From contig JAVCBW010000051.1 of the NCBI GenBank assembly GCA_037917675.1, forward strand, positions 30,142 through 94,141: 64,000 nucleotides of DNA, in the 5' to 3' direction. This DNA is from Thermoproteota archaeon. Lineage in GTDB: Archaea; Korarchaeota; Korarchaeia; B14-G2. A model generated the notes under the pieces. That model did no database searches. It was not told the origin of the DNA and saw only the letters and a list, made by a program, of their open reading frames with translations. This document shows, piece after piece, positions 2,648 through 44,651 of the stretch (position 1 is the stretch's first letter; each line of letters begins with the position of its first letter). Position numbers and translations under genes: made by a program.

Positions 2648-3593
2648 GATGCCTCTGCCTCCCCTTAATCAAGCTGACCGCTAGGTCTCTGAGCGCGAAG
2701 GCATCTACACCAACCATGTAAGCTGGTATGTCGATGAGTTCTCCTGCATAGAGCCTGACATAGAGGCTTCCATCAAACCTGACCACCGAAGCTCTCCTAC
2801 ATGAGCTCCAGCCTCCTGAGAGCCTCCTTCTACCAATCCTGATGCTAAAGCCGTCTTCAGTCATCAGTATAGAGGAGTGCTGAGCGAGAAAGTAGAATGC
2901 TCCTCCAGCTAGGCAAGACAAGAGAAGAACAGCTAGAAGAACCCACATTCCCTCCACGAGCCCAATCAGCAGCGCAGCTGCAGTCAGAACAGACCCCATA
3001 AGGAAGGCTGAGATCAGCGAGTTCACAGCTAAAGCTGGCACATATACTCTACTATAGAGCCTACCTATCTCTACCCTCCTGCTCTTACCTGCTCTCTTAA
3101 AAACCCTCTTGAGCCTAAGGCTCTTCAGTAGCCTAGTTGCCAGAAACCCTCTGCTAGCATAGGCCTTCATCTCACTGCAGTCTACGAGTATAACTCCCAT
3201 GCCTCTCTCTTCTATCCCCTCAACTGCATTGATGAGCTTCCTATCAGCTCTACTAGCAACTATTATGAGCCAGCTCGCATGGGCTCCTAAGTTAAGCGAG
3301 TGCAGCTTAGCTGCCTCAACGAGCTTTATAGCATCACTCTCACTAGGCTCCTCTAAAGCTGAAATATAGCAGTGAACCCTATAGTCTGGAACCATCAAGG
3401 CTAGGAGCCTAGATAGCAGGAATCCAGTAGGCCTAGTGCCACCTGACAGGAAAGAATGGAACTCTACTCCAAAGGCTTTAAAGCCCTTGACAGCCTCTCT
3501 AAAGTCAGCTATCTCGATGCCTCCACCAGCCATAAGCTCTCCTTCAAGGCTTCGAGCAACATCCTCAATGCTAAATCGGCAGGAGTGGCCCAT
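2622..3593 (-). CDS. Hypothetical membrane protein (soluble N-domain, two TM helices, beta-rich C-tail)
   Basis: 323-aa ORF overlapping both neighbours; hydrophobic hairpin in the C-terminal half. Confidence 0.6.
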   Translation of the reverse strand: MGHSCRFSIEDVARSLEGELMAGGGIEIADFREAVKGFKAFGVEFHSFLSGGTRPTGFLLSRLLALMVPDYRVHCYISALEEPSESDAIKLVEAAKLHSLNLGAHASWLIIVASRADRKLINAVEGIEERGMGVILVDCSEMKAYASRGFLATRLLKSLRLKRVFKRAGKSRRVEIGRLYSRVYVPALAVNSLISAFLMGSVLTAAALLIGLVEGMWVLLAVLLLSCLAGGAFYFLAQHSSILMTEDGFSIRIGRRRLSGGWSSCRRASVVRFDGSLYVRLYAGELIDIPAYMVGVDAFALRDLAVSLIKGRQRHHVEEQAGG

Positions 3594-4356
3594 ACCTCTT
3601 CTCCTCTACACCCTTAGCGAGCCTGGGTTCAGCTGGCTTCAGCACGATCCCACTTTCAAGAGCCTCCTCTAGGCTCTCAACCCTCACTTTAGCATCCACT
3701 CCAAGCTCTACTCCTCCATGGCTTGAACAGAATGTGTATGGGTAGAAGAAGTAGACGTCTTCGACTCTAGTTGGATCACTTTCAAGCTTAATCTCAACCT
3801 CACCGTCTCCTCCACCAGCATCTAAGACACGCCCCTCACATAGAGGGTACTCAACCGAGTATTCCTTCCTATCCACTTTAAGCCACTCCCTTATGACAAC
3901 CCCAGCCATGTAGTCTTCAGCATCACCCTTAAGTGGGAATCTGCCTTTTATCATCTCACCAGCCTGGTAGGTCAGCTTCTCAAGCTCAAGGCCTCTCGAA
4001 GTCAGCCTGCTCTCACTATCAGATGGGAGGACCTTCAGCCTGAGCTCCCTTCTAGGCCACAAGACACGCCCACCTAGCCTAGGGGTGCCGAATACAAGAG
4101 ACCACCTTACCTTTATGCTCCTACAGCTCACTGTGGGAGGGAGCTTCTCAGGATACCTTATCTCAAAGCTGCCTTCATCTATTGTAAACTGCCTCCTATA
4201 TGACAGCACTACATTCCAGCTATATCTACCTACCTCCCTGCTAGGTAGGTCTGATGCAGCTAACACAACGAGTACTGCTGTAACTCTCCCAGATGCCTCT
4301 CCCCTTATAGGCTCACCAACCTTCAAGACGCTTTTTTCAACAAGAACTTGCAGCAA
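3571..4356 (-). CDS. Hypothetical protein, possible arrestin/Spo0M-like beta-sandwich
   Basis: Two repeats of a .EK....GE.I.G start pattern; F.I.YP..LPPT....I.V.W.L resembles the arrestin-N motif. Confidence 0.45.
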   Translation of the reverse strand: MLQVLVEKSVLKVGEPIRGEASGRVTAVLVVLAASDLPSREVGRYSWNVVLSYRRQFTIDEGSFEIRYPEKLPPTVSCRSIKVRWSLVFGTPRLGGRVLWPRRELRLKVLPSDSESRLTSRGLELEKLTYQAGEMIKGRFPLKGDAEDYMAGVVIREWLKVDRKEYSVEYPLCEGRVLDAGGGDGEVEIKLESDPTRVEDVYFFYPYTFCSSHGGVELGVDAKVRVESLEEALESGIVLKPAEPRLAKGVEEKRYGPLLPI

Positions 4357-4394
4357 GTAAACCCCACTAGAAGCTTCAAACAGCTAAATAACCT

Positions 4395-32931: not shown

Positions 32932-33789
32932 TCACTTGCTGCTTAATGATGTCAGCATCCTATAGAAGGACTTATATGCCATGGACAGCTCCTTCTCGTC
33001 CCAGGTTCTAGCCTTAATGACCTCGCTTTCAACATGCTCCGTGTTCTTCAGCTTGCTCTTTAGTTCAGCTAGCTCCTCTATAATGCTGTCTATGATCTCA
33101 GGCATGTACTTGCTTTCACAAAGTAAGTCTGCATACAGGGATGGGCTCTGTGACAGGAGAGCCTTAGCCAGTGTCAGCTGGATCCTATAGGATGTCCCAG
33201 AGAGAGCCTCCAGCTCACCTAGGTCTCTTGGATGGAGCTTAGCTAACATGAGATTGAGGAGGTAGACCAGTGAGATTGTGTAGCTTACTGTCCTATCGTG
33301 GGTTTCCAAGTCGACTACGATGAGCTTGCAGTCTGGGAAGAGGCTCCTAGCCAGCTTAAGCTCCTCGCTTGAGTCTAGCACCGGTATGACAGCTACCTTC
33401 TCTCCTCTAAGCGAGCTGACTCCAGGACCGAATAGCGGGTGTATAGAGAGCAGCCTGACATCAGGCCTCTCTTCAAGCTCTACCTTGGCCCTGCTGAGAA
33501 CCCTATGCTTCAAAGACGATATTTCAGCTATCACAGCCTCTGCCCTAGCTAGCCTGATAGCCTTAGCTGTGACGTCTGGTGCAGCTCTCATAGGCACTGA
33601 GATCAGGACCACCTCCATCTTAGCTGCCTCCTCAAAGCTCTCTGCAGCCTCAGCTCCAAGCTTCTCTGCCAGCCTCTCAGCTTTCTCAGCTTCTATGTCA
33701 TATAAGAGCAGGCTGAAGCCCCTCTCCCTGAAGTAGCTTGCTAGCCTACACCCCATTGCTCCTACTCCAATTATGCTGATCAAGTGCAC
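32932..33789 (-). CDS. tyrA: Prephenate/arogenate dehydrogenase
   Basis: IIGVGAMG, EISSLK, SIHPLFGP, HD...Y...L. Confidence 0.9.
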   Translation of the reverse strand: MHLISIIGVGAMGCRLASYFRERGFSLLLYDIEAEKAERLAEKLGAEAAESFEEAAKMEVVLISVPMRAAPDVTAKAIRLARAEAVIAEISSLKHRVLSRAKVELEERPDVRLLSIHPLFGPGVSSLRGEKVAVIPVLDSSEELKLARSLFPDCKLIVVDLETHDRTVSYTISLVYLLNLMLAKLHPRDLGELEALSGTSYRIQLTLAKALLSQSPSLYADLLCESKYMPEIIDSIIEELAELKSKLKNTEHVESEVIKARTWDEKELSMAYKSFYRMLTSLSSK

Positions 33790-35125
33790 ACCTCAGCTTA
33801 GCTAGGCCTTCTCTAAGCTCTTCTTCTCTGATCGAGTATGTTATCCTCAGGTACCTAGCGTATTCTTCTCCGAAGCCTGAGCCAGGTGCCACTGCAACCC
33901 CCCATTCACGTAAAAGCTTCCTCGCGAACTCTATGCTGCTGAACTCTTCTAACATGACTTCCGGGAACAGGTATATCCCGCCATCTGGCTTATAGTAGCT
34001 GAGTGGAGCTGAAGCAAGCTCTGCCTCAGCTAGCTCAAGTAGCCTTCTAAGCTTCACCTTGTTCTGCTCGTCTGCCTTTGTTTCGAGAGCTGCCTCAGCT
34101 GCCCTCTGGATGAATGGTGGCACACATGTTACTGCAAGAGACTGCACTTTAGCTATCTTCTCGACCATGCTTGGGCTGCTGACTACTAATCCAGCTCTAA
34201 AGCCTGCCATTCCAAACGCCTTAGAAAGTGAGGTCACATAGACTACCTTACTGCAGCTAGTATGTAGCGCTGAGCTATGTTCTCTGAAGCTGAGCCACCC
34301 ATAGGTTTCATCAGAGAGCAGTATTGCATCCTGCTTCTCAGCTTCCTCAGCTATATGCTCCAGCTCACCTCTGTCTAGCGATCTACCAGTAGGGTTATCT
34401 GGGTTGCAGACTATGATGAAGTCTGCTTCAGGGATCTCTGTGATGCTCCAGTCTTCCTCAAGCCTCCTAACAGATCCGACCACGATGGCTTTCAGCCTAG
34501 CTGCTATCTCAGTGAAGGCAGGCCAGCTTGGCTTAAAGACTAGGATCCTAGAGCCTAGTCCAGCTAGCGCAGCCATGCTAGCATAGACTCCCATCTTAGC
34601 TCCAGGTGTCAGAGCTATGTTCTCAGCCTTGAGATCTACTCCAAGCCTCTCACCTAGAAGCTCAGCTACCTTAGCTCTGACGTCAGGGAGCCCAGCTGCA
34701 GGTGTATACCTGAACTCCCCCCTCTCAATAGAGCTGACTGCTGCCTCCAGAGCCTCCCTAGGGGGGGTAAAGCATGTCTCACCGACATCAAGCCTTATGG
34801 CATTGCTTACCATGCCTGCCTGCCTAACCAGGCTGTAGAATGGGCTCTCAGACTCCTCCAACATGAAGCCCTGTGCTCTCCTCCCCTGAGACAGCAAGAC
34901 TGAGAGTATTTCGAGCGCAAACTCCCTTGGAACCCCCTCTTCACCAGCTACCTTCACCGCTGCCCTAGCTAGCTCAATCTCCCTCTCAGGGTCATATATG
35001 CTGAGGCCGAGCTCACGCTTGGCTCCCCCAAGCTCTGAAGCTAGCTTAGCTCTAGCTGCAGCCAGCTTCAGTATCCTGATGGTGGCCTCCTCTATCCTAC
35101 TTCTGAGCTCTAGCATATGCTCCAC
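33746..35125 (-). CDS. Chorismate mutase (AroQ) fused to a class I/II aminotransferase
   Basis: N-terminal LRSRI....I..L...R..LA..LG..K......IYDPERE; C-terminal YT..AG, TPGAK, NPDNPTG, SDETY, SLSKAFGMAGFRAG. Confidence 0.88.
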   Translation of the reverse strand: MEHMLELRSRIEEATIRILKLAAARAKLASELGGAKRELGLSIYDPEREIELARAAVKVAGEEGVPREFALEILSVLLSQGRRAQGFMLEESESPFYSLVRQAGMVSNAIRLDVGETCFTPPREALEAAVSSIERGEFRYTPAAGLPDVRAKVAELLGERLGVDLKAENIALTPGAKMGVYASMAALAGLGSRILVFKPSWPAFTEIAARLKAIVVGSVRRLEEDWSITEIPEADFIIVCNPDNPTGRSLDRGELEHIAEEAEKQDAILLSDETYGWLSFREHSSALHTSCSKVVYVTSLSKAFGMAGFRAGLVVSSPSMVEKIAKVQSLAVTCVPPFIQRAAEAALETKADEQNKVKLRRLLELAEAELASAPLSYYKPDGGIYLFPEVMLEEFSSIEFARKLLREWGVAVAPGSGFGEEYARYLRITYSIREEELREGLAKLRCALDQHNWSRSNGV

Positions 35126-36224
35126 CTAAAACCGGAGGGATGAAGCCTGCTCTGATAGCGTGGTCTGCTAGGACTATAGCTGTAACAGCTTCAACTACTG
35201 GAGCAGCTCTAGGTGCTAGGCAGGCATCATGTCTCCCAGCTACCCTGATCTCAGTTTCCCTCATTGCCTCCAAGTCAACTGTCATCTGAGGTTTAGCTAT
35301 AGAGGATGGAGGCTTGAATACAGCTCTGAAGAGAACTGGCCCTCCAGTGCTAAGTCCTCCAAGCACACCTCCACAGTTGTTTGTCAGCGTCAAGACTCTT
35401 CCATCTCGTATGGTGTACTGGTCATTGCTCTCAGAACCTCGCATCTCAGCTAGCCTAAAGCCAGCTCCAAATTCGATGCCCTTCAAGGCTGGTATTGAGA
35501 AAAGTGCTTTGCTTAAGTCTGATTCAAGCGAGCTGAAGACAGGCTCTCCAAGCCCAGGTGGAAGCCCCTCTACAACACACTCTACGATGCCACCTAGGCT
35601 ATCTCCTTCGTCTCTCGCTTCAGCTACAAGCTTCTCCATATCCCTAGCTGCCTCTAGGTCTGGTGCTCTCATGCTATTAGAGTACACTATCCTCCTCAGC
35701 TCTCTGAGGCTTACAGCTGGAGGCTCAGCTTTAACCCAGCCGACCTGAGTCACATAAGCTAGGATCTCTACTCTAAGCGTGTATCTAAGAAGCTTCTTAG
35801 CTACAGCTCCAGCCATAACGAACCCTACTGTGATCCTTCCAGAGAACCTTCCCCCTCCTCTCGGGTCATTGAAGCCCTTGTACTTGACCCAAGCTGGGTA
35901 GTCTGCATGTCCAGGTCTAGGCTTCATGGCATTAGCTAGATACCAGCTTGAGTCAAAATCCATGTTCTCGACTAGCATAGCTATTGGAGCTCCAGTAGTA
36001 TAACCCCTATAGACTCCTGAGAGCAGCTTTACCTCATCTCTCTCAGCTCTAGCAGTTGAAGCAGTGGTGTTAGCTGGCTTCCTCAAGTCAACTTCCCTCT
36101 GGATGTCCTCTCTAGCTAGCGGGAGCCCAGCTGGACACCCATCTACAACAGCTCCTATAGCTGGCCCATGGCTCTCGCCGAAGCTCACTACAACAAACCT
36201 CTCTCCTAGGATGCTGCCAGTCAA
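35097..36224 (-). CDS. aroC: Chorismate synthase
   Basis: FGESHG, RPGHAD, GGGRFSGR, DSLGG, NNCGG.LGG, FKPPSSI, GRHD. Confidence 0.97.
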   Translation of the reverse strand: MTGSILGERFVVVSFGESHGPAIGAVVDGCPAGLPLAREDIQREVDLRKPANTTASTARAERDEVKLLSGVYRGYTTGAPIAMLVENMDFDSSWYLANAMKPRPGHADYPAWVKYKGFNDPRGGGRFSGRITVGFVMAGAVAKKLLRYTLRVEILAYVTQVGWVKAEPPAVSLRELRRIVYSNSMRAPDLEAARDMEKLVAEARDEGDSLGGIVECVVEGLPPGLGEPVFSSLESDLSKALFSIPALKGIEFGAGFRLAEMRGSESNDQYTIRDGRVLTLTNNCGGVLGGLSTGGPVLFRAVFKPPSSIAKPQMTVDLEAMRETEIRVAGRHDACLAPRAAPVVEAVTAIVLADHAIRAGFIPPVLGGAYARAQK

Positions 36225-37489
36225 CCTACCACCTCAACTCTGCCTCCAAGCCTCAAGATGTCCTTGAGGAAGCTTGGATAGGAGTCTGCTATGCATTCAA
36301 CTCCCCTGATCAAGTTTGCTTCATCTAGGCTTAGAGATAAGGCTATCAATGCCATCGCTATCCTATGATCCCCCCAAGAGCTCAGCGTTTGCCCCCCTCT
36401 CAGCTCTCCTCCCTCTATCACAAGCCTCTCTTCTTCAGCATGTGCTTCAGCACCAAGCTTGGAGAGCTCTGAAGCCAGTGCTGCAGCTCTATCAGACTCC
36501 TTTATCCTAGTGTGCTCAATGCCCTCTAGGATCGTCCTGCCAGGTGCCTTAGCTGCAAGCACAGCTAGTGCAGGCAGAAGGTCTGGTGTGTCTCTAAGGT
36601 TCAGTCTAGCAGCTCTAGGGCTAAAGCCATGCACTATGATGCTCTCCTCTCTATACTCTATGTCTACTCCAAGCTCCCTAAAGTACTGTATGAAGGCTGA
36701 GTCGCCTTGAGGGTAGGTTAAGTTGAGCCCCTTCACCCTGACTCTCGACTCAGTGAGAGCTGCTGCAGCAGCTAGCAGAGCTGCTAGTGAGAAGTCTCCT
36801 GGGACTCTGAAGCAAGCTGGCTTTAGCAGCTGCCTAGGTGGCACAACATACCCCCAGCTTCTCTCCTCTATGCTTCCTCCAAACCACCTCACTACATGCA
36901 CTGTCATCTCGACATATGGCTTTGAGACGAGCCTAATAGGCTTGAGCCTCACCTCACTTCTAGCCCAGAGCGATGCAACTATCATCGCAGACAGGAACTG
37001 AGATGAAAGCCTGCTATCAACCTCAGCTTCTCCTCCAGCTAGCCCACAGCCCTCTACTAGAACTGGCAGCTTCCCTCCTCCAATAGACCATGCTCTCCCA
37101 CCAAGCTCGCGTATAGCAAGGATTAAGGGCTCCATGGGCCTTCTTCTCAGGCTTCTAGAGCCAGTCACCAGGGTGAAGCCTCCAGTGGCATGGGAGGCAA
37201 CTGCAGTGATGAACCTGGCAGTAGTCCCAGAGCTCCTAGCGTCTAGCATGCTAAATGGAGCTCTAAGCTCCCCACCGAGCACTACTACTTCACTTGCTGC
37301 TCTCACCTTAGCTCCGAGCTTCATGCAGCAGTGCAGAGTAGCCTCTGTATCTCTACAGTACAGTGGGTTCATCACTTTAGACCTGCCTGCTGCCATTGAG
37401 GCCAAGACTATAGCTCTATGCGTATAGCTCTTGCTAGGTGGAGCCTTGACTGAGCCAGATAGCTTACTTCCATACACTATAGCGTCCAG
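36221..37489 (-). CDS. aroA: EPSP synthase
   Basis: PPSKSYTHR, SGTTARF, LRRRPM, SSQFLS, R.KESDR, DHRIAMA, SYPSF. Start is CTG 37489 or GTG 37477. Confidence 0.95.
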   Translation of the reverse strand: MDAIVYGSKLSGSVKAPPSKSYTHRAIVLASMAAGRSKVMNPLYCRDTEATLHCCMKLGAKVRAASEVVVLGGELRAPFSMLDARSSGTTARFITAVASHATGGFTLVTGSRSLRRRPMEPLILAIRELGGRAWSIGGGKLPVLVEGCGLAGGEAEVDSRLSSQFLSAMIVASLWARSEVRLKPIRLVSKPYVEMTVHVVRWFGGSIEERSWGYVVPPRQLLKPACFRVPGDFSLAALLAAAAALTESRVRVKGLNLTYPQGDSAFIQYFRELGVDIEYREESIIVHGFSPRAARLNLRDTPDLLPALAVLAAKAPGRTILEGIEHTRIKESDRAAALASELSKLGAEAHAEEERLVIEGGELRGGQTLSSWGDHRIAMALIALSLSLDEANLIRGVECIADSYPSFLKDILRLGGRVEVVG

Positions 37490-38337
37490 GCTTCTCCCCT
37501 CAGGCTGGAGTTTACTCTAGTCAACAAGACTCTACAGCCTGAGCTTGCCCACTTCTCTCTAACCTCCTCAGCTACGCTGCTGCTGCACACAGCGTAGAGG
37601 CTTGGGCCGGTCCCTGAGACTCCAGCTGCTAGCGCTCCAAGCTCCATCGCCTTAAGCGCTGGCTTGAAGTCTATGCCTAGCAGAGCTGAGACAGCTAACC
37701 CATTTATCAGCGCTGCCTCCTGCCACTCTCCGCTCAAGGTGAGCTCATAGGCCTTCCTAAACACCTTACTAAGAGCTCTCATCTTCTCTACGCTTACGCT
37801 AGCGGTGTACAGCTTCCTCTCTGGCACAAGTATCACGACACTTCTCTCCTCAACATGCCAGCGGCTGACGACCTCCCCAGCCTTGTTGTCTGCTGCAACG
37901 AGCCCGCCTAAGAGGGATGCTGCCGAGTCGTCTAGAGCACCAGTCACTGAGACCTCTGCTCTAAGCTGGGCTTCAGCTGAGAGACTTAGCACATCATGGG
38001 GCCTAAGCTTCCTGCCTAGTGCAGCTGCAGTCGCCATGATGACAGCGTTGGCAGCTGCACTAGAGCTCTTAAGCCCTCTTGCAGGAGGTATCTCAGACCA
38101 GGTCTCTATGTGAGCTCCAGCATCATGCTCCCCTAGCCTCCTGAGTGTGAGCTTAGCTGCCTCGATCACTAGCCTCGTGCTCTCACCTGGTGTGCTGAGC
38201 AGCTTAGCTGAGAAGCTTCCACTTGTCAGCTCTACCCTAGCCTCAGTCTTGAGTCTCACTCCTAGTGCAGCTCCCTTCCAAGCTGGTATCGCGTTGACTA
38301 TGGTGACTGCCCCATAGGCTCTAGCTGCTGCTTTCAA
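37477..38337 (-). CDS. aroK: Archaeal (GHMP-type) shikimate kinase
   Basis: GAVTIVNAI, SEIP...GLKSSSAAANA, TGALDD, GVSGTGPS. Confidence 0.93.
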   Translation of the reverse strand: MKAAARAYGAVTIVNAIPAWKGAALGVRLKTEARVELTSGSFSAKLLSTPGESTRLVIEAAKLTLRRLGEHDAGAHIETWSEIPPARGLKSSSAAANAVIMATAAALGRKLRPHDVLSLSAEAQLRAEVSVTGALDDSAASLLGGLVAADNKAGEVVSRWHVEERSVVILVPERKLYTASVSVEKMRALSKVFRKAYELTLSGEWQEAALINGLAVSALLGIDFKPALKAMELGALAAGVSGTGPSLYAVCSSSVAEEVREKWASSGCRVLLTRVNSSLRGEAWTL

Positions 38338-39133
38338 GCTCAGCCACCACAGCCTTCATCATATCGTCTACTGGGGGCTCGAAGCCAGTCCATATTCTGA
38401 AAGCTTCTGCCCCCTGAGCTACAAGCACCTCCACTCCAGGTATGGGCTTAGCTCCAGCTGCCTCAGCCTCTCTAAGCAGCGGTGTCTTCAGGGGCCTATA
38501 GACCAGATCGAGTACAGCCTGATGCCTTCTCAGGAGGCTTCTGTCGACTAGAGTACTCTCCCCATCCATGCCGACTGGTGTAGCATTGACCACGAGGTCA
38601 GCTCTAGGGATGTGCTCTCTGAGCGACCTCCTACTGAGCTCAGCTGGTGTAGCTGGCATCCTCTCAGCTAGCCTCCTAGCTCTGGCTAGCGTCCTATTGA
38701 GGACGGTGACCTCAGCTCCAAGCTCAGCTAGGCAGTAGACTACAGCCTTAGCTGCCCCACCAGCTCCGAGAACTACAGCTCTCCTAGCTTCCACACCAGC
38801 CTTCTCTAGCGCCACCCTTACGCCAGCTACATCAGTATTATATCCAGCGAGCCTGCCTCCTACATTGACTACAGTATTGACTGCTCCAATAATCTCGGCT
38901 TCCCTGCTGACTTCATCCAAGTACTCCAGAATAGCTTCCTTCAGAGGCATGGTGACGTTGAACCCCCCCACATCTGGTCTTCTAAGCGTCTCGGCTGCTT
39001 CAGGCAGCTGGCTAGCCCTGACTTCGATGGCCTCATAGCGGTAAGGTAGCTTAAGCTTCCTGAAAGCTGTGTTATGCATTAGAGGCGACAGGGAGTGGGA
39101 TACTGGGCTACCTATCAGATAGAAGGTCTTCAA
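38321..39133 (-). CDS. aroE: Shikimate dehydrogenase
   Basis: HSLSP.MHN, NVTMP.K, GAVNT, NTD, GAGGAA, NATPVG, DLVY.P. Confidence 0.96.
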   Translation of the reverse strand: MKTFYLIGSPVSHSLSPLMHNTAFRKLKLPYRYEAIEVRASQLPEAAETLRRPDVGGFNVTMPLKEAILEYLDEVSREAEIIGAVNTVVNVGGRLAGYNTDVAGVRVALEKAGVEARRAVVLGAGGAAKAVVYCLAELGAEVTVLNRTLARARRLAERMPATPAELSRRSLREHIPRADLVVNATPVGMDGESTLVDRSLLRRHQAVLDLVYRPLKTPLLREAEAAGAKPIPGVEVLVAQGAEAFRIWTGFEPPVDDMMKAVVAELESSS

Positions 39134-39800
39134 GTCTAGTAGCCTCCACTAGCTCTATTAGCTCGCTTGCTGTGAGCTGCCCTTCAGCTGTAGCCTCACC
39201 TGGAAGGCACACATACGTGTATGGTGCTCCAGCCATGAGGCATAGGACACGTGACAGCACTCCCATGCTACCTGAGCAAAATGCTACCAGGTTCCCAGCT
39301 ATCCTCCTATATAGCCTGAGCACTCCTAGGTTATCAGCCAACCTACTTGCTTTCGGGACTAACTTAGCAGCCCAAGCTATCTCAAGCCCCCTTCTAGCTA
39401 TGCTCTCGAGTAAGCTAGCTTCTGGAGTGTAGCTGCTGTGCCATGAGGCAACTAGCAGAACTCCTTCAGTCTTCGCTTTGTCAGCTAGCTCCCTCCTCCT
39501 CTCAAGTGTATGGAGCTCTATGTCAACTGCCATAGGCTTAGCTTCAATCAGCTTCAATAGGAGCCTAGCTCTCTCATCCTCTGTCACGCTCCTTGCTCCC
39601 CCCTCAAGCCAGCTCCTATATGTCAAAAGGATGTTATCATATGATCTTGCAGCATCTCTCGCTGCCAGCTCAGCCTCACTGGGGGGCATGTAGTCAAGCC
39701 TCACCTCCACTAGAAGTGGAGTGTATTTCTGAGCTTCCTGAACTCTAGCTAGAGCATCCTCTCTGCTCTCAGCTCTAACTGAGACGCAGATCCTCCTCAA
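39108..39800 (-). CDS. aroD: Type I 3-dehydroquinate dehydratase
   Basis: VEVRLDY, TYR...EGG, DIEL, SWH...TP, K, G.LSR, TA.GQ. Confidence 0.9.
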   Translation of the reverse strand: MRRICVSVRAESREDALARVQEAQKYTPLLVEVRLDYMPPSEAELAARDAARSYDNILLTYRSWLEGGARSVTEDERARLLLKLIEAKPMAVDIELHTLERRRELADKAKTEGVLLVASWHSSYTPEASLLESIARRGLEIAWAAKLVPKASRLADNLGVLRLYRRIAGNLVAFCSGSMGVLSRVLCLMAGAPYTYVCLPGEATAEGQLTASELIELVEATRLEDLLSDR

Positions 39801-39804
39801 GCGA

Positions 39805-40839
39805 TCACTTCTCTAGGAGGAACTCTTCTACCGCCATTCCAGCATGCCTGGCCTTAGCCTTAGGCTTGTGGACTAGCACTTTACTACCTTCCTCTAGCTC
39901 CCTGACTGAGACAGCTTCTCCACTAGGGCTCACGAGACACACCGTCTCAGCATCCTGTAGGAGCACTGTGCCAGCTTCACCTGAGGCCTCAGCTTCAACA
40001 AGCAGCATAGACCTCTTCTCTATCTTCACCCTCCCTACTATAGCTCTCCTAGCTCTCCCTCTCCAGCTCACTGCGAGCACGCTACTCCCTCCCTTGAGCT
40101 CAGAGAGGTATCTTGTCTCATGCAGAGAGGAGAGGATGTAGCTGTGGACTGCTCCAGCATTGACTCGAAATGGCCTAGGCTCTATGAATGGGTTCTCTAG
40201 AGTCTCGCTGTGGACTAGGAAGAGGAGTGAGGCTTTGCTTCCAACCAGCATGCCCTCCCCCCTGGAGAGGAGTAGAGCTGTGTCTATGCATGCTCTGTCT
40301 CCCAGCCCTGTCTCCTGGACACAGGTGACCTCAGCCTCCTCAAGCTTGAGGAACCCTTCAGCATGGCTCCTCAGCTGTCTGAGTGATTCCCTAAGCTCTC
40401 CCACCGACTCTGGAGCCAGAACTATGGCGTCAACCCCCCTCTCAAGAGCTGAAAGCAGCGAGATAGCGTCTCTCATGTCTCTGGCTTCAGCATAGACCTC
40501 ACACTTACCTGCTGCTGCTGCAATTATGTTCTCAGCTGGAACTACCCTCCAGCTCTCTGCCTCAATGAGCAGGGCTTTAGCTCTAGTGCAGGCTTCAGCA
40601 GCCTCCTCTATGTCTGTACTGCTCTCTACCCTGGCTTTGACCACGTCTCCTATACTGCCTAGCTCAGCTAGCCTCAGGTCTCCCCCCTCTGGTGCTATCA
40701 GAGTTACCTTAGGCTTGAAGCCTACTGCTTTCTCTGAGAGCAGGGCCTTGACCCCTAGCCTAGCAGCCTCCTCAGCCAGCTTCTCTGCTTCAGCCTCGCT
40801 TTCAGGCAGCTTAACTATCACCCTGCTCTCTAAGCTCAC
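39805..40839 (-). CDS. 3-dehydroquinate synthase II (AroB')
   Basis: W.VVP.ENIIA, LERGVD, GDRACIDT, GEGMLVGS, RPFRVNAGAVH, YLSEL, GRVKIE.R, LQDAETV, ARH.G. Confidence 0.94.
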   Translation of the reverse strand: MSLESRVIVKLPESEAEAEKLAEEAARLGVKALLSEKAVGFKPKVTLIAPEGGDLRLAELGSIGDVVKARVESSTDIEEAAEACTRAKALLIEAESWRVVPAENIIAAAAGKCEVYAEARDMRDAISLLSALERGVDAIVLAPESVGELRESLRQLRSHAEGFLKLEEAEVTCVQETGLGDRACIDTALLLSRGEGMLVGSKASLLFLVHSETLENPFIEPRPFRVNAGAVHSYILSSLHETRYLSELKGGSSVLAVSWRGRARRAIVGRVKIEKRSMLLVEAEASGEAGTVLLQDAETVCLVSPSGEAVSVRELEEGSKVLVHKPKAKARHAGMAVEEFLLEK

Positions 40840-41626
40840 TTCTAAGCACCTCCATAGCCTCCTCTGCTGAAGCACCATCCAGGACTATCATCCTAATGCA
40901 CTTCAGCATGAGCTCAGGCCTACTGTGCTGGAACACGTTTCTGCCTAGAGCTACTCCAGCTGCCCCAGCCTCCATAGCTCCCTCAACCATCTTGAAGACC
41001 TGAAGCTCACTCTCAGCCTTAGGGCCTCCAGCTATCACGACTGGGACAGGGCACCCCTCTACTACACGCCTGAAGCTCTCTGGGCTCCCTGTATATGCTG
41101 TCTTAACTACGTCTGCTCCGAGCTCAGCTCCAAGCCTAGCTGCATGAGCTACGAGCTCAGGGCTATGTGGGTCTCTTATGCTCTTTCCTCTAGGATACAT
41201 CATGGCTAGCAGAGGCACCCCTAGGCTCTCACACTCCTCAGCGATAGCAGCTAGCTTCATGAGCATCTCAGGCTCCCTCTCTGCCCCCAGGTTCACGTGG
41301 ACTGAGACGCCGTCTGCACCTAGCCTGAGAGCCTCTAGCACGCTTGCAACCCTGACCTTCCAGTTTGGGCTTGGGCCTACACTGGTGCTAGCTGAAGCAT
41401 GGACTATCAGCCCTAGCCTAGGGGTGTATGAGATGGCTTTCAGCACACCTTTATGCACAACTACTGCTGTAGCCCCTCCCTCCTCAGCCTTCCTGATGGC
41501 ATCATATATCTTAACGAGCCCCTTTATCGGCCCAGATGTGACACCGTGGTCCATTGGGACACAAACCATCTTACCTGCCTCAGTCAGCCTAGACAGCCTG
41601 ACCCTCTTACCACTCACCCTAACCAC
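40811..41626 (-). CDS. 2-amino-3,7-dideoxy-D-threo-hept-6-ulosonate synthase (AroA', DhnA-type aldolase)
   Basis: PMDHG, HKG, H.SAST, GAD.VS.HVN.G, MYPRG, ELGAD.VKT.YTG, AGGPK, GRNVFQ; adjacent to AroB'. Confidence 0.9.
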   Translation of the reverse strand: MVRVSGKRVRLSRLTEAGKMVCVPMDHGVTSGPIKGLVKIYDAIRKAEEGGATAVVVHKGVLKAISYTPRLGLIVHASASTSVGPSPNWKVRVASVLEALRLGADGVSVHVNLGAEREPEMLMKLAAIAEECESLGVPLLAMMYPRGKSIRDPHSPELVAHAARLGAELGADVVKTAYTGSPESFRRVVEGCPVPVVIAGGPKAESELQVFKMVEGAMEAGAAGVALGRNVFQHSRPELMLKCIRMIVLDGASAEEAMEVLRSELREQGDS

Positions 41627-42663
41627 CCCACTTCAGCTGCTAGCTCAGCTAGCAGAAGCGCGCAGCCAGCTGCTCCTCTTATAGTGTTGTGGACTAGCAG
41701 AGTGAAGAGGAGGCTGTTTGCTGTAGCTCCCCTCCTCACCCTACCTACTGTAATACTCATGCCAGGTGGGCTGCCAGCATCCCTGTCAAGCCTAGGCTGA
41801 GGCCTATCCACGTCCTCTAAGACTATAATGGGCTGGTCTGGTGCAGTTGGCAGCTTGAGCTCCTGTGGAAGCCCCCTAAACTCCCTGAGCAGGTCCATGG
41901 CATGATCTGGGCTGATAGGCTCTTCTGTCTCGACGAACACGCATTCAAGGTGCCCGTCTAGCACAGGAACCCTGTTACAGGCAGCCTCAACTCTGATGTC
42001 AGCTTCCTTGACTCTACTTCCAGCAAGCTCTCCAAGCACCTTTCTAGATTCCCTAGCTACCTTCTCCTCCTCACCTGAAATGTATGGTATAGTGTTGTCT
42101 ATGAGGTCTAGTGAGGAGACTCCAGGATAGCCTGCTCCAGACGCAGCTTGGAGCGTAGCTACCCTAACAGCCTTTATCCTATACTCTCTGGCAATAGGCT
42201 TTAGAGCCATGACAAGCCCTACTGTAGTGCAGTTTGGGTCAGTAGCTATGAGGCCACTCCAACCTCTAAGCTCTCTTTGAGCCTTGATGAGCTCAAGGTG
42301 CTCTGGATTGACTTCTGGGACTACCAAGGGGACATCATGGTCCATTCTATGGGAGCTCGCATTGCTAAACACAGCACACCCTGCTTCAGCAGCATGCTCC
42401 TCAGCTTCCCCAGCTACATCAGATGGTAGCGCAGAGAAGACGACATCGTAGCCTCCACTGAAGCTGCTGAGGCTAAGCACCTCCAAGTCAGCTAGCTCAG
42501 CTGGAGGCCTGCCATGCCACTTGACATCATGATACCTGAGTCCAGCTGTCTTCCCAGCGTATACTGCCTCAAGCTTAAACCATGGGTGCCCTGCTAGCAG
42601 CTCAGCGAACCTCTGCCCCACGATCCCTGTCCCACCTAGCAGCGCTGCCGAGAACCTACTCAA
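41614..42663 (-). CDS. asd: Aspartate-semialdehyde dehydrogenase
   Basis: GGTGIVGQ, FSALP, SNASSHRM, PEVN, PNCTT, QAASGAG, RVPV.DGH, HNTIRGAAG. Confidence 0.96.
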   Translation of the reverse strand: MSRFSAALLGGTGIVGQRFAELLAGHPWFKLEAVYAGKTAGLRYHDVKWHGRPPAELADLEVLSLSSFSGGYDVVFSALPSDVAGEAEEHAAEAGCAVFSNASSHRMDHDVPLVVPEVNPEHLELIKAQRELRGWSGLIATDPNCTTVGLVMALKPIAREYRIKAVRVATLQAASGAGYPGVSSLDLIDNTIPYISGEEEKVARESRKVLGELAGSRVKEADIRVEAACNRVPVLDGHLECVFVETEEPISPDHAMDLLREFRGLPQELKLPTAPDQPIIVLEDVDRPQPRLDRDAGSPPGMSITVGRVRRGATANSLLFTLLVHNTIRGAAGCALLLAELAAEVGWLG

Positions 42664-43897
42664 CCACATCACCTCCAAGCTTACTCCTCAGAATCTCCAT
42701 GACGCTCTCCTTTGAGCTCCATGGAACCAGTACTCTGACTGAAGAGTGTATTGTGAACAGCCCATAGATGTTCACTCCAGCAGACGAGATGGGCTCAACG
42801 ACCATCTCTATTATCCCAGGAGTTGTCTCAAGGCTTCTTCCCCTCACTGAGATCAGAGCTAGGCTGCCTAAGCTTGAGATAGCTTTAGCCTCACCCTTCT
42901 CCACGAGCTCATGTGTCTTTCTCAAAGCCTCCTCTGAGCTGCCTTCGAAGTAGAGGATTGCAGCAGTCTCCATGCTTGTTGCAGCTAGCGTCCTACACCC
43001 TATCTCTGAGAGCAGCTGCTCAGCTAGTTTCACAAGCCTGCTTCCATCCTTCCCTACCACTGTGAGCATTGAGAGAGGCTTGCTGTAGGCTGAGACCTCC
43101 AGTAGAGGGCCTCCATTGACTACTGTACCCCCCTCTGTCAGAGGCTCTCTGAAGCCTACCACTCTGATCCTCATCCAGCTTGGCATATACTTGAGAGCTT
43201 TAGGGGCTATCACCTTAGCTCCACTTGAAGCCAGGAGCTCAGCTTCACTGAGCTCTATGCTGTCCAGGACTCTAGCTCCATGAACCGCCTTCGGATCTGC
43301 TGTGTAAATGCCCTCGACATCCTTTACGAGCACGACCTCCTTACACCCAAGGAACCTAGCTAGGAGAACAGCTGTGATGTCTCCTCCACCCCTCCCCATT
43401 GTGGTGACCTTCCCGCTCTTAGAGACCCCTAGGAAACCGCATATGACCGGTGTATTCCCTGATTCAAGCAGGGGAAGCATCTTCTCCTTGACTGCTCTGC
43501 TACACTCCTCTAGGATAGGCTCTGCATCACCATGCTTCTCATCTGTGAGTATCGGCCACCACTCTGACTTGGGATCAACTAGCACTGATCTGACTCCAAG
43601 TGACCTTAGAGCTGAGTGGAGGAGCCTAGCTGCCAGCTCCTCTCCTGAAGCTAGGACGTAGTCCATCTCCTCTCTGAGCTCGGTGGAGGCAGCCTCCTTA
43701 AACATCTCAGCAAGCACGTCTGTGTGCCCTTTCATGGCTGAGACGACGACAGCAACCCTCCAGCCAGCGTCGATTTCGCGTTTAATGACGTCCGCTGCTT
43801 TCTTGAAGGCCTTTGGCCCAGTTAAAACAGACCCACCAAACTTTACGACAAGAACTCGGCTAGAAGAGGCCTCCGGCGATGTAAACTCGACCGCCTC
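42656..43897 (-). CDS. lysC: Aspartate kinase; no canonical in-frame start before the KFGG motif (putative +1 frameshift entry)
   Basis: Frame open from 43897: ..RVLVVKFGGSVL...VVVSAMKGHTD, SGE, GRGGGDITA, KDVEGIYTADP, ACT-like C-terminus. The track start at 43735 lies downstream of the N-terminal KFGG motif. Confidence 0.93.
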   Translation of the reverse strand, partial: EAVEFTSPEASSSRVLVVKFGGSVLTGPKAFKKAADVIKREIDAGWRVAVVVSAMKGHTDVLAEMFKEAASTELREEMDYVLASGEELAARLLHSALRSLGVRSVLVDPKSEWWPILTDEKHGDAEPILEECSRAVKEKMLPLLESGNTPVICGFLGVSKSGKVTTMGRGGGDITAVLLARFLGCKEVVLVKDVEGIYTADPKAVHGARVLDSIELSEAELLASSGAKVIAPKALKYMPSWMRIRVVGFREPLTEGGTVVNGGPLLEVSAYSKPLSMLTVVGKDGSRLVKLAEQLLSEIGCRTLAATSMETAAILYFEGSSEEALRKTHELVEKGEAKAISSLGSLALISVRGRSLETTPGIIEMVVEPISSAGVNIYGLFTIHSSVRVLVPWSSKESVMEILRSKLGGDVVE

Positions 43898-43901
43898 TCA
43901 C
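43860..43901 (-). promoter_or_regulatory. Leader ORF MRGGRVYIAGGLF* (Tyr and Phe codons) overlapping lysC, which lies in its +1 frame
   Basis: TATA at about 43937-43944, GGTG SD, then GTG AGA GGC GGT CGA GTT TAC ATC GCC GGA GGC CTC TTC TAG. Confidence 0.65.
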
Positions 43902-44045
43902 CTAGAACACCAAGCTAATGGGTCGAGGTTGCCCGTATTTAAGCATTTCCCCCAGCTATTGCATGCCTCATCAAAACCTGCCCCTAGCCTGATACAGCTA
44001 CGTAACGCATCTGCAGGCTTTACCTGCTGACCTAGCTGCTCTATC

Positions 44046-44651
44046 TCACGCCACCCTCTTAAAGTAGATTATTCTCTGAGCTGCTGTTATAAGTGAGCCT
44101 ACTGATGCTATGAAGACCATGGCTGGAAGCATGATCTTGAGCTCTAGGAGGTATAGGAGCATCCCAGCAGCCATACACGTGATCTTCTCCTTCCTCTCGA
44201 AGAGCCCTACTCCCATCGCTGTCTTCTTCAGCTCAGCCTCTCCCCTAGCCCTCACATAGCTTGGAGATATCAGAGAGAATAGAGCCAGCACACCAAGCCA
44301 CCCTGGTATGTATCCTCCTACTGTCAGGGCTAGCAGCAGCATGAACTCTATACACCTATCAGTGTAGTGGTCTAGGAGTGTTCCAAATGGGCTTTCAAGG
44401 CCAGCTGCCCTAGCTATGCTCCCATCCACCACATCTAGGAAGACTGCTACGAGATATACCAGTAGCCCTGCTAGCATCCTGCCTGCTGCAATAAGGGCTG
44501 AGGCTATAGCCGCCACACCCATAGAGGATATCGTCACCTGATTTGGTGTCAGCCCTAGCTTAGCTAGCTTAGCTCCAAGAGGAGCTGTAGCCTTCTCATA
44601 TAGCTCCCTGATACGAGGCTTAGTCAAGCTAACCCACCCTTCTAACTCCAT
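44046..44651 (-). CDS. CDP-alcohol phosphatidyltransferase (archaetidylinositol-phosphate synthase-like)
   Basis: TPNQVT, D..DG..AR......FG..LD...DR, SYVRARGE, G..ER.E. Confidence 0.9.
   Translation of the reverse strand: MELEGWVSLTKPRIRELYEKATAPLGAKLAKLGLTPNQVTISSMGVAAIASALIAAGRMLAGLLVYLVAVFLDVVDGSIARAAGLESPFGTLLDHYTDRCIEFMLLLALTVGGYIPGWLGVLALFSLISPSYVRARGEAELKKTAMGVGLFERKEKITCMAAGMLLYLLELKIMLPAMVFIASVGSLITAAQRIIYFKRVA

What the first reader, a model, noticed from the sequence alone, without database searches (positions are those of the whole stretch)
43855..43945. lysC appears reachable only by a +1 shift out of a Tyr/Phe-codon leader ORF
Seen (minus strand): TATA, then AGCTTGGTGT (identical to the sequence before the iscU start), then GTG AGA GGC GGT CGA GTT TAC ATC GCC GGA GGC CTC TTC TAG. 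The lysC frame is +1 to this, is closed by TGA at 43898-43900, and has no ATG, GTG, TTG or CTG before VVKFGG. A slip from GTT to TTT at the Tyr codon gives MRGGRV-TSPEASSSRVLVVKFGG. An SD-like GGCGGT sits 3 nt before GTT, the same spacing as the internal SD in the bacterial prfB +1 site (established). Inference: Tyr limitation at TAC, or Phe limitation at CTC-TTC-TAG, stalls the ribosome and switches on the Tyr operon.
Basis: partly seen in the sequence, partly recalled or inferred. Interest (0 to 1): 0.85.

Follow-up and report, generated by a model that had tools for sequence, protein, structure and literature searches.

The report
Aspartate kinase gene needing a frameshift
The first gene of an archaeal tyrosine-synthesis operon has no usable start codon in its own frame and can apparently be reached only by ribosomes that start in a 13-codon leader and slip forward one base, a layout kept unchanged in a sister species.

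Summary
On the minus strand the aspartate-kinase (lysC) frame opens after TGA 43900-43898. It has no ATG, GTG, TTG, CTG or ATN codon before the essential VVKFGG motif; the first ATG (43735) lies beyond it. A GTG at 43901, 10 nt after a GGTG Shine-Dalgarno (SD), which is this genome's usual spacing, opens a 13-codon ORF. lysC lies +1 to that ORF.

This is not an assembly error. A congener (82% protein identity) and an independent metagenome contig have the same frames. The block 43912-43881 is 100% identical, and lysC evolves under purifying selection (dN/dS 0.17). This genome often starts genes at CTG, but lysC ranks first of 106 candidate start-less ORFs and CTG does not explain it.

The best explanation is a programmed +1 ribosomal frameshift (about 0.5). 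The exact site is unresolved. GTT_TAC is the most slippery position. GGT_CGA has a rare codon, and TTC_TAG_C resembles prfB.

The main rival is non-canonical initiation, such as GTC 43891.

The Tyr-sensing idea is untested but fits the context. The operon ends in prephenate dehydrogenase, and no Phe, Trp, Thr or DAP branch genes were found. Read mapping was unavailable.

The parts
43935..43948 (-). Conserved TATA-like promoter element (AAATGCTTAAATAC; TATA core CTTAAATAC 43943-43935)
   Evidence: It is identical in G000, G001 and L021, while the flanking intergenic DNA is only 18-42% identical. The transcription start was not mapped. TATA-like 8-mers in this genome mostly begin 31-40 nt before first candidate starts. 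Here the 8-mer begins 42 nt before GTG 43901.
43908..43912 (-). SD-like site 1 (TGGTG) serving the leader start codon; conservation with the congener begins at 43912
   Evidence: GGTG lies 10 nt before GTG 43901. Genome-wide, GGTG precedes canonical starts at d=9 in 92 cases, d=10 in 106 and d=11 in 31, out of 448 rows. Pairing with the 16S tail is -7.5 kcal/mol. The same 10-mer AGCTTGGTGT precedes the iscU TTG at d=10.
43860..43901 (-). Leader ORF: GTG plus 12 sense codons plus TAG (peptide MRGGRVYIAGGLF), the 0 frame
   Evidence: The same ORF is present in G001 with two substitutions that are non-synonymous in this frame.
43898..43903 (-). SD-like site 2 (AGGTGA); its TGA (43900-43898) is the stop that closes the lysC frame upstream
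   Evidence: -8.3 kcal/mol. GTC 43891 lies at d=11 from its GGTG (row C51 - 20098).
43889..43897 (-). SD-like site 3 (GAGGCGGTC), the strongest anti-SD complement in the region; the helix ends 2 nt before GTT
   Evidence: Duplex energy with the 16S tail is -11.9 kcal/mol. Only 0.067% of 150,000 random genomic 10-mers are this strong, and 5.7% of 174 gene starts have an SD this strong.
43887..43892 (-). Candidate shift site A: GGT_CGA, with a rare 0-frame A-site codon and the abundant +1 codon GAG
   Evidence: CGA is 1.2 per 1000 (2% of Arg codons). GAG is 64.4 per 1000.
43881..43886 (-).
   Evidence: It is the only overlap position that keeps codon positions 2 and 3 paired after a +1 slip (hand tabulation). 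It lies in the loop of the predicted hairpin.
43859..43874 (-). Candidate shift site C: GGAGG (43874-43870), a 4-nt spacer, then TTC_TAG_C (a stop-codon site resembling prfB)
   Evidence: -8.4 kcal/mol. In G001 the first G of GGAGG is A.
43860..43905 (-). Predicted hairpin enclosing the leader ORF (CUAG/CUAG plus GAGAGGC/GCCUCUU plus inner stem; loop (G)UUUAC(A))
   Evidence: One search gives -16.6 kcal/mol (z -0.8) in G000 and -19.1 (z -1.6) in G001. Both substitutions fall at positions unpaired in the G000 fold, and 43880 A>C adds a G-C pair. The fold is not statistically distinguished from shuffles.
42656..43897 (-). Aspartate kinase (lysC) reading frame: 413 sense codons plus stop, +1 relative to the leader
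   Evidence: Pfam AA_kinase 1e-42 plus ACT_7. It is the only copy found in the genome. Against G001, dN/dS is 0.168 and dS is 0.548.
32932..42678 (-). Ten downstream operon genes: asd, ADH-synthase-like aldolase, DHQ synthase II, aroD, aroE, GHMP shikimate kinase, EPSP synthase, chorismate synthase, chorismate mutase-aminotransferase, prephenate dehydrogenase
   Evidence: Consecutive ORFs mostly overlap or abut.

Best explanation
Aspartate kinase, the first enzyme of an 11-gene operon that makes tyrosine, is expressed by a programmed +1 ribosomal frameshift. Ribosomes bind the GGUG Shine-Dalgarno at 43911-43908 and start at GUG 43901. They then translate a short leader. A fraction of them move forward one base somewhere between 43897 and 43863. 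This takes them past the UGA that closes the lysC frame and ahead of the leader's own UAG, and they continue into lysC. Ribosomes that do not shift release the 13-residue peptide.

What is shown: the frame layout, its conservation, the SD geometry, and selection on lysC.

What is inferred: that the shift happens, and where. My ranking of sites is GUU_UAC (about half of the frameshift probability), then GGU_CGA, then UUC_UAG_C. The strong anti-SD complement GAGGCGGUC just upstream would hold or pause the ribosome with GUU in the P site. If the shift is at GUU_UAC, shortage of charged tRNA-Tyr would raise it and switch the pathway on. That regulatory step is inference only.
For: 1. No ATG, GTG, TTG, CTG or ATN codon lies in the lysC frame between the TGA and KFGG. 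The kinase domain starts at residue 15 of that frame.

2. GTG 43901 has GGTG at d=10. Genome-wide counts are 92 at d=9, 106 at d=10 and 31 at d=11, out of 448 rows.

3. The layout is the same in congener G001 and in the independent contig L021. The run 43912-43881 is 32/32 identical and ties for the longest perfect run in a 3.8-kb alignment. The intergenic DNA just upstream is 18-42% identical.

4. lysC is functional: dN/dS is 0.168 over 413 codons, and it is the only aspartate kinase found in the genome.

5. All 9 differences in the first 25 lysC-frame codons are at third positions. That includes the 2 inside the overlap (43880, 43874), which are non-synonymous in the leader frame.

6. lysC ranks 1st of 106 candidate 'start-less' long ORFs in the genome. 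Several of the other top-ranked ones begin at CTG behind an SD.

7. There are frameshift-type signals. CGA is rare at 1.2 per 1000. The anti-SD complement of -11.9 kcal/mol lies in the top 0.067% of 10-mers. Four SD-like sites fall in 60 nt, against 0.115% of 20,000 random segments.

8. The metabolic logic fits. The operon ends in prephenate dehydrogenase. PDT, Chorismate_bind, Homoserine_dh and DapB_N were not found in the genome.
Against:
- Only two species carry the layout, so the substitution argument inside the overlap rests on 2 sites (chance about 1 in 9). The same 2 sites also fall at positions unpaired in the G000 fold of the predicted hairpin.
- No site is a textbook shifty site. After a +1 slip, GUU_U pairs at 2 of 3 positions, and UAC is a common codon.
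- SD-like clusters are not rare in this purine-rich genome. There are 196 genome-wide, mostly inside ordinary coding sequence, so ribosomes evidently pass such motifs without shifting.
- The SD-to-GUU spacing equals normal initiation spacing and is not shortened as in prfB.
- The hairpin is no more stable than shuffled sequences (z -0.8 and -1.6; z 0.04 for the wider region).
- The organism tolerates CTG starts, so its initiation may be looser than the textbook rule.
- +1 frameshifting has not been shown for any cellular archaeal gene (passages of PMC8211752, and PMC5009743).
Confidence: 0.5

Rival explanations
1. Non-canonical initiation in the lysC frame. The strong SD AGGUGA (43903-43898) places the initiator tRNA on GUC 43891 (d=11), or SD-like site 3 or 4 places it on UUU 43885 or AGC 43861 (d=10). 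The GUG leader would then be a competing or regulatory upstream ORF.
For: The AGGTGA-N6-codon geometry matches CTG-start genes in this genome (AGGTGATGACCT-CTG and AGGTGATGAAAG-CTG). CTG follows GGTG at d=9-11 in 28 of the 153 rows that lack a canonical start, so start-codon choice is relaxed. AGC 43861 sits about where homologues have their Met.
Against: GUC, UUU and AGC each differ from AUG at two positions. None is a recognised near-cognate start (established knowledge, recalled). A genome-wide look found no enrichment of GTC, GTT or GTA behind SDs in start-less ORFs. This reading leaves the conserved TGGTGTTCT and the well-placed GTG 43901 unexplained. Ribosomes starting at GTG, 10 nt upstream, would occlude GUC.
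Confidence: 0.2
2. Termination-reinitiation. Ribosomes finish the leader at UAG 43862-43860 and are retained by GGAGG (43874-43870). They restart without a standard start codon at or next to AGC 43861, where homologues begin.
For: GGAGG lies at initiation spacing (d=9-10) from UAG/AGC. The leader stop lies at about the position where homologous kinases begin.
Against: There is no start or near-cognate codon there. The two overlap substitutions are synonymous in the lysC frame upstream of this point. I know of no prokaryotic precedent for restarting on AGC (recalled).
Confidence: 0.07
3. An RNA-level event restores one frame: a small bulge-helix-bulge (BHB) intron (as in archaeal cbf5), editing, or transcriptional slippage.
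For: The region can fold into a hairpin that brackets the leader. 22 nt (3n+1) lie between the outer stem strands.
Against: A systematic bulge-helix-bulge search gave 16 weak hits. None removes a 3n+1 segment inside 43898-43863 without deleting KFGG or the start. The longest homopolymer is TTT, too short for slippage. No Rfam family matched.
Confidence: 0.05
4. lysC is not made as a full-length enzyme. It is an inactive remnant, or is translated only from ATG 43735 without the KFGG motif.
For: Gene callers produced exactly that. The window's protein is on record as 359 aa from ATG 43735, and the congener's as 396 aa from a GTG that is GTA in this genome.
Against: dN/dS is 0.168 across all 413 codons, and changes before ATG 43735 are third-position only. 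It is the only aspartate kinase found, and it heads an intact pathway that needs aspartate semialdehyde.
Confidence: 0.06
5. Assembly or sequencing indel.
For: The genome is a 62-contig draft, and reads could not be checked.
Against: Three independent assemblies from two species share the frames with no gaps.
Confidence: 0.02

Closest known systems
Bacterial prfB (release factor 2) programmed +1 frameshift
   Same: A short 0-frame ORF with its own start, and the functional protein in the +1 frame. SD-like sequences lie just upstream of candidate shift codons. The signal block is conserved at the nucleotide level. One candidate site (GGAGG-N4-UUC_UAG_C) copies the SD, short spacer, codon, stop and C design.
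   Different: This is an archaeon. The best slippery site has a sense codon (UAC) in the A site, not a stop. The strongest SD-like site sits at normal initiation spacing rather than a shortened one. The 0-frame part is only 13 codons, so the whole enzyme is in the +1 frame. The sensed quantity cannot be the protein's own activity as a release factor.
Yeast Ty1/Ty3-type and 'hungry codon' +1 frameshifting (rare or starved A-site codon)
   Same: GGU_CGA pairs a very rare 0-frame codon (1.2 per 1000) with a very abundant +1 codon (GAG, 64 per 1000). GUU_UAC would work as a hungry-codon site under Tyr shortage.
   Different: P-site re-pairing is weaker than for CUU_A. Nothing is known about tRNA levels here. 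Hungry-codon shifting is described as incidental in bacteria (passage of PMC5009743), not as a gene's only route of expression.
Leader-peptide control of amino-acid operons (for example pheL, where +1 shifting at UUC_CCC_UGA reaches 15% but was judged incidental; abstract of PMC3082878)
   Same: A short leader ORF sits ahead of an aromatic amino-acid operon and contains codons for the pathway's product. The leader ends in a Phe codon followed by a stop.
   Different: There is one Tyr and one Phe codon, not a run. No terminator/antiterminator pair was found. Here the shift would be obligatory for expressing the first enzyme, whereas pheL acts through transcription attenuation.
Saccharolobus solfataricus fucA1, the only demonstrated cellular archaeal frameshift (passages of PMC8211752)
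   Same: An archaeal cellular gene split over two overlapping frames, with rare codons and a putative stem-loop at the overlap.
   Different: fucA1 is -1 on an A_AAA_AAT heptamer in mid-gene. This case is +1, has no heptamer, and lies at the very 5' end.

Membership tests
prfB-type programmed +1 frameshift | 0-frame ORF with a credible ribosome-binding site and start | tested here: met
   GTG 43901 has GGTG at d=10, the modal spacing.
prfB-type programmed +1 frameshift | Functional product encoded in the overlapping +1 frame, with no start of its own | tested here: met
prfB-type programmed +1 frameshift | Slippery P-site codon whose tRNA re-pairs fully in +1 (CUU_U) | tested here: inconclusive
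   GUU_U keeps 2 of 3 pairs. All other overlap positions are worse or mismatch in the middle (hand tabulation).
prfB-type programmed +1 frameshift | In-frame stop codon in the A site at the shift | tested here: inconclusive
   Not met at GUU_UAC or GGU_CGA. Met at UUC_UAG_C. The true site is unknown.
prfB-type programmed +1 frameshift | SD-like element at shortened spacing (3 nt) upstream of the shift codon | tested here: inconclusive
   At GUU, the best register (GAGGCGGUC, -11.9 kcal/mol) gives normal initiation spacing (d=9). Only the weaker GGCGGU register gives 3 nt. At UUC, GGAGG is 4 nt upstream, against a usual 7-8.
prfB-type programmed +1 frameshift | Conservation of the frame layout and signal across species | tested here: met
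   Two species and three assemblies. No further relatives exist in the collections searched.
prfB-type programmed +1 frameshift | Demonstrated trans-frame protein | not testable with these tools
Leader-peptide transcription attenuation | Run of regulatory codons plus alternative terminator/antiterminator hairpins | tested here: not met
   The leader has a single Tyr and a single Phe codon. There is one hairpin of ordinary stability.
T-box or other described RNA leader | Match to a curated RNA family | tested here: not met
   The Rfam scan of 43700-44100 found nothing near any family's threshold.
Archaeal bulge-helix-bulge mRNA intron (cbf5 type) | Two 3-nt bulges flanking a 4-bp helix, positioned so that splicing restores the frame | tested here: not met
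   16 weak candidates, none usable.
Aspartate kinase (AA_kinase + ACT) | Amino-acid kinase domain with the N-terminal KFGG motif, plus a C-terminal ACT domain | tested here: met
   PF00696 1e-42 over residues 15-245, and PF13840 2.7e-09.

The most novel reading that the evidence does not exclude
This is a frameshift-based amino-acid sensor. With GUU in the P site, the anti-SD is held on GAGGCGGUC and the Tyr codon UAC waits in the A site. The supply of charged tRNA-Tyr then decides whether the ribosome stays in frame and makes a 13-residue peptide, or slips +1 into aspartate kinase. Aspartate kinase is the first step of a pathway that, as far as the genome shows, makes only tyrosine. If so, this would be the first programmed +1 frameshift in a cellular archaeal gene. 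It would also be the first biosynthetic operon, in any domain, gated by frameshifting rather than by attenuation or a riboswitch.
Probability: 0.2. Interest if true: 0.9.

Novelty: new variant of a known kind. Interest (0 to 1): 0.68.

Why it matters
According to the 2016 and 2021 reviews whose passages I read, recoding in cellular Archaea is documented only for Sec and Pyl readthrough and for one -1 frameshift. The reviews mention +1 shifting only as likely in one haloarchaeal virus.

A conserved, obligatory +1 shift at the head of a biosynthetic operon would extend this mechanism to archaeal ribosomes. It would show that SD/anti-SD contacts can act during elongation in Archaea. It would also give a compact 60-nt element that is easy to test in reporters.

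There is a practical point as well. Gene callers truncate this enzyme to 359 or 396 aa, so pathway reconstructions for this lineage may wrongly score aspartate kinase, and with it tyrosine synthesis, as broken.

Tried and rejected
1. BHB intron. A script enumerated all bulge-helix-bulge geometries in 43960-43760. None restores the frame.

2. Known RNA family. Rfam found nothing.

3. Unusually stable structure. z-scores were 0.04, -0.8 and -1.6, so I do not claim one.

4. Other copies of the element. Fuzzy searches of the genome for the 32-nt block, the 18-nt core and the 15-nt shift region found only the locus itself plus poor matches with 3-4 mismatches.

5. Wider relatives:
- The metagenome scan returned 2 loci: L021 (the congener species) and L022 (38% identity), out of 175 candidate stretches.
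- The class search covered 40 genomes. Only G001 shares the layout, and the 18 other hits (41-49% identity) have ordinary ATG, TTG or GTG starts.
- The phylum search covered 43 genomes.
- The 5.8-billion-protein search found only 2 clusters above 48% identity.
- The genome contigs pattern scan returned 10 stretches: 1 is the congener contig and 9 are chance hits in unrelated MAGs.

6. Homology of the lysC-frame N-terminal extension to the 'FT[TS]..E.SSSR' extension of proteins P0099, P0108, P0114 and P0119 looked suggestive. It is not significant against shuffles (p=0.27), so I dropped it.

7. A second frameshifted gene. C41 -41968 looked similar (GGTGATGAGAGG). It is a DnaG-like ORF with an ordinary TTG further on.

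8. SD-site density as strong evidence. It is rare per window (0.115%), but there are 196 such clusters genome-wide, mostly Glu/Arg/Gly-rich coding sequence. I downgraded it.

9. Unusual tRNAs. Without intron handling, ARAGORN reported a 4-base anticodon (tagg) and a 'stop' tRNA (tta). Both vanish when introns are allowed, so I treat them as artefacts.

10. TGA or TAG reassignment or readthrough. The lysC frame upstream of the TGA has no start and runs into the promoter.

11. Ribosome hopping. No matching take-off and landing codons put the ribosome into the lysC frame (by eye).

Supplements of the cited papers were not opened.
Full report
WHAT IS THERE.

On the minus strand a TATA-like CTTAAATAC lies at 43943-43935. 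About 20 nt downstream comes TGGTGTTCTAG. Next is the leader, GTG(43901) AGA GGC GGT CGA GTT TAC ATC GCC GGA GGC CTC TTC TAG(43862-43860).

One base downstream of that frame, the aspartate-kinase frame opens after TGA (43900-43898). It reads GAG GCG GTC GAG TTT ACA TCG CCG GAG GCC TCT TCT AGC CGA GTT CTT GTC GTA AAG TTT GGT GGG, and continues for 413 codons to 42656. None of the 18 codons before AAG (the K of KFGG) is ATG, GTG, TTG or CTG, and none is an AUG near-cognate.

The first ATG (43735) lies after the KFGG motif. The Pfam AA_kinase match begins at residue 15 of the frame. That includes the exact repeat of AGCTTGGTGT 4 nt before the TTG of a NifU_N/IscU ORF.

IS IT REAL?

The one congener among 199,900 species genomes is G001, whose LysC is 82% identical. 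It has the same two frames. A metagenome contig (L021) of the G001 species differs from G001 at 10 of 3928 positions, with no gaps, and is identical across the leader.

Between G000 and G001 the intergenic DNA is 18-42% identical. From 43912 onward there is a 32-nt perfect run that ties for the longest in 3.8 kb. lysC itself has dS 0.548 and dN/dS 0.168, and it is the only aspartate kinase found in the genome. So this is a selected, expressed gene and not an indel artefact or a decaying remnant.

HOW DOES THIS ORGANISM START TRANSLATION?

The 16S rRNA ends in GGATCACCTCC. GGTG precedes canonical starts at 9, 10 and 11 nt in 92, 106 and 31 cases respectively, out of 448 SD-plus-ORF rows. A smaller, cleaner set peaks at 9 nt (31 of 173).

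I ranked all long ORFs (200 codons or more) with at least 25 start-less leading codons by coding score. lysC came 1st of 106. Several of the next-ranked ORFs look like a sliding-clamp (PCNA), a 2-oxoacid:ferredoxin oxidoreductase alpha subunit, a GMP synthase and a RIO-type kinase. I recognised those names by eye from the N-termini and did not test them. They begin with CTG just after a stop, most behind an SD. CTG follows GGTG at d=9-11 in 28 of the 153 rows without a canonical start.

This genome therefore uses CTG starts, which weakens any argument from 'no ATG/GTG/TTG' alone. But lysC has no CTG either. A search for GTC, GTT or GTA starts behind SDs showed no enrichment.

THE LEADER START.

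GTG 43901 lies 10 nt after GGTG (43911-43908). That is the modal spacing, and the same 10-mer context precedes the iscU start. Conservation with G001 begins exactly at 43912. TATA-like 8-mers in this genome begin mostly 31-40 nt before first candidate starts. Here the distance is 42 nt to GTG 43901, which fits a roughly 12-nt 5' UTR carrying the SD. The transcription start is not known.

I therefore take GTG 43901 as a real initiation codon. This is an inference resting on geometry and conservation.

HOW IS lysC REACHED?

Ribosomes in the leader frame must move +1 after 43898 and before 43863.

Evidence bearing on the site:
- (a) Both substitutions inside the overlap (43880 A>C, 43874 G>A) are synonymous in the lysC frame and non-synonymous in the leader frame. 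So are the next seven differences. This mildly favours a shift before 43882, at about 4:1 by my estimate. However, both sites also fall at positions unpaired in the G000 fold of a predicted hairpin, which explains them equally well.
- (b) Of the 12 possible P-site positions, only GTT_T keeps codon positions 2 and 3 paired after the slip (hand tabulation).
- (c) The strongest complement to the 16S tail is GAGGCGGUC (43897-43889) at -11.9 kcal/mol. That is in the top 0.067% of 150,000 genomic 10-mers and stronger than the SD of 94% of 174 gene starts. Its helix ends 2 nt before GTT. In the register used at real starts, however, GTT sits at d=9 and TTT at d=10. This is normal spacing, not the shortened spacing that drives prfB.
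- (d) GGT_CGA offers a rare A-site codon (CGA, 1.2 per 1000) and an abundant +1 codon (GAG, 64.4 per 1000).
- (e) GGAGG-CCTC-TTC_TAG_C resembles prfB in layout, but G001 weakens its GGAGG.
- (f) Four SD-like sites in 60 nt occur in only 0.115% of random segments. Yet 196 such clusters exist genome-wide, mostly in ordinary purine-rich coding sequence, so this is weak evidence.

I rank the sites GTT_TAC, then GGT_CGA, then TTC_TAG. I cannot decide between them.

ALTERNATIVES.

- Non-canonical initiation (GTC at d=11 from AGGTGA, or TTT or AGC at d=10 from the other SD-like sites) would need a codon two steps away from AUG. It also leaves the upstream SD and GTG unexplained.
- A bulge-helix-bulge intron was sought systematically and not found.
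- Rfam has no match.
- The folds are unremarkable.
- No other copy of the element exists in the genome.
- An apparent similarity of the N-terminal extension to another kinase clade was not significant (p=0.27).

CONTEXT.

The operon runs as follows: aspartate kinase, aspartate-semialdehyde dehydrogenase, a DeoC-family aldolase, 3-dehydroquinate synthase II, dehydroquinase, shikimate dehydrogenase, a GHMP-type kinase, EPSP synthase, chorismate synthase, a chorismate mutase-aminotransferase fusion, and prephenate dehydrogenase.

The aldolase plus DHQ synthase II pair is the archaeal route that builds dehydroquinate from aspartate semialdehyde. I recall this from the literature and did not check it here.

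In this 92.7%-complete genome I found no prephenate dehydratase, no chorismate-binding (TrpE-type) enzyme, no homoserine dehydrogenase and no DapB. There are two DHDPS-family genes. As far as can be seen, aspartate kinase here feeds only this pathway, and the pathway ends in tyrosine. That makes a Tyr codon at the most slippery position of the leader suggestive. It remains an inference.

COMPARISON AND NOVELTY.

The design works like prfB, or like rare- or hungry-codon +1 sites, but it fails or leaves open several defining features of each (see the membership table).

Reviews from 2016 and 2021 (passages read) list only one demonstrated cellular archaeal frameshift, which is -1 (fucA1), and a likely +1 event in one haloarchaeal virus. 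My searches turned up no report of a frameshift in an archaeal aspartate kinase or of a frameshift-gated biosynthetic operon. The pheL case (abstract) is a caution that frameshifting at leader ends can be incidental.

VERDICT.

A programmed +1 frameshift is the best-supported mechanism, at about 0.5. The Tyr-sensing version stands at about 0.2. The finding is worth experimental follow-up.

Noticed in passing
whole genome G000 (for example C57:+72712, C43:-11610, C1:+159595, C21:+116801): CTG appears to be a common start codon. 28 of the 153 SD-plus-ORF rows without a canonical start have CTG at 9-11 nt from GGTG. They include genes whose N-termini look like a PCNA sliding clamp, a 2-oxoacid:ferredoxin oxidoreductase alpha subunit and a GMP synthase (recognised by eye, not tested). 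One likely ATT start is at C41:+64877. Standard gene callers will truncate these proteins.
   Followed up: partly
window 32932-43901 (minus) and whole genome: Aspartate kinase and aspartate-semialdehyde dehydrogenase head the shikimate/tyrosine operon. No prephenate dehydratase, TrpE-type enzyme, homoserine dehydrogenase or DapB was found, so the organism may make Tyr but not Phe, Trp, Thr, Met or DAP-lysine. The genome is 92.7% complete.
   Followed up: partly
window 43902-43907 and 43860-43865 (minus): The hexamer TTCTAG occurs twice in the same frame. The first copy ends a 2-codon mini-ORF (GTG TTC TAG, 43910-43902) directly abutting GTG 43901. The second ends the leader. The two CUAG cores can pair and close the hairpin around the leader. 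Both copies are conserved in G001.
   Followed up: partly
proteins P0032, P0057, P0070, P0080: In one search several aspartate kinases from other archaeal lineages are on record at 388-389 aa (P0032, P0057, P0069, P0070, P0071, P0076, P0080). Only P0032 was seen to start after the KFGG motif; the others have the motif within their first 20 residues. Unusual starts may therefore occur in P0032's lineage too; its DNA could not be fetched.
   Followed up: no
G000 contig C16, about 1205-4391 (+): Repeated units of the form CCCTAGGAGGGCTCTAGG.GATCG...GCCTGA.GTGAGAGCG recur several times within 3 kb. I saw them only in the SD-cluster scan and do not know what they are.
   Followed up: no
G000 contig C44: 11010-11810 and 12302-13105 (+): Two DHDPS-family genes lie in tandem, in a genome where DapB was not found. 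They may be aldolases of another pathway rather than lysine enzymes.
   Followed up: no
G000 tRNA set: Many tRNA genes carry introns, some at non-canonical positions. ARAGORN finds only 24-32 tRNAs, and its calls of a 4-base anticodon and a stop-reading tRNA disappear when introns are allowed.
   Followed up: partly
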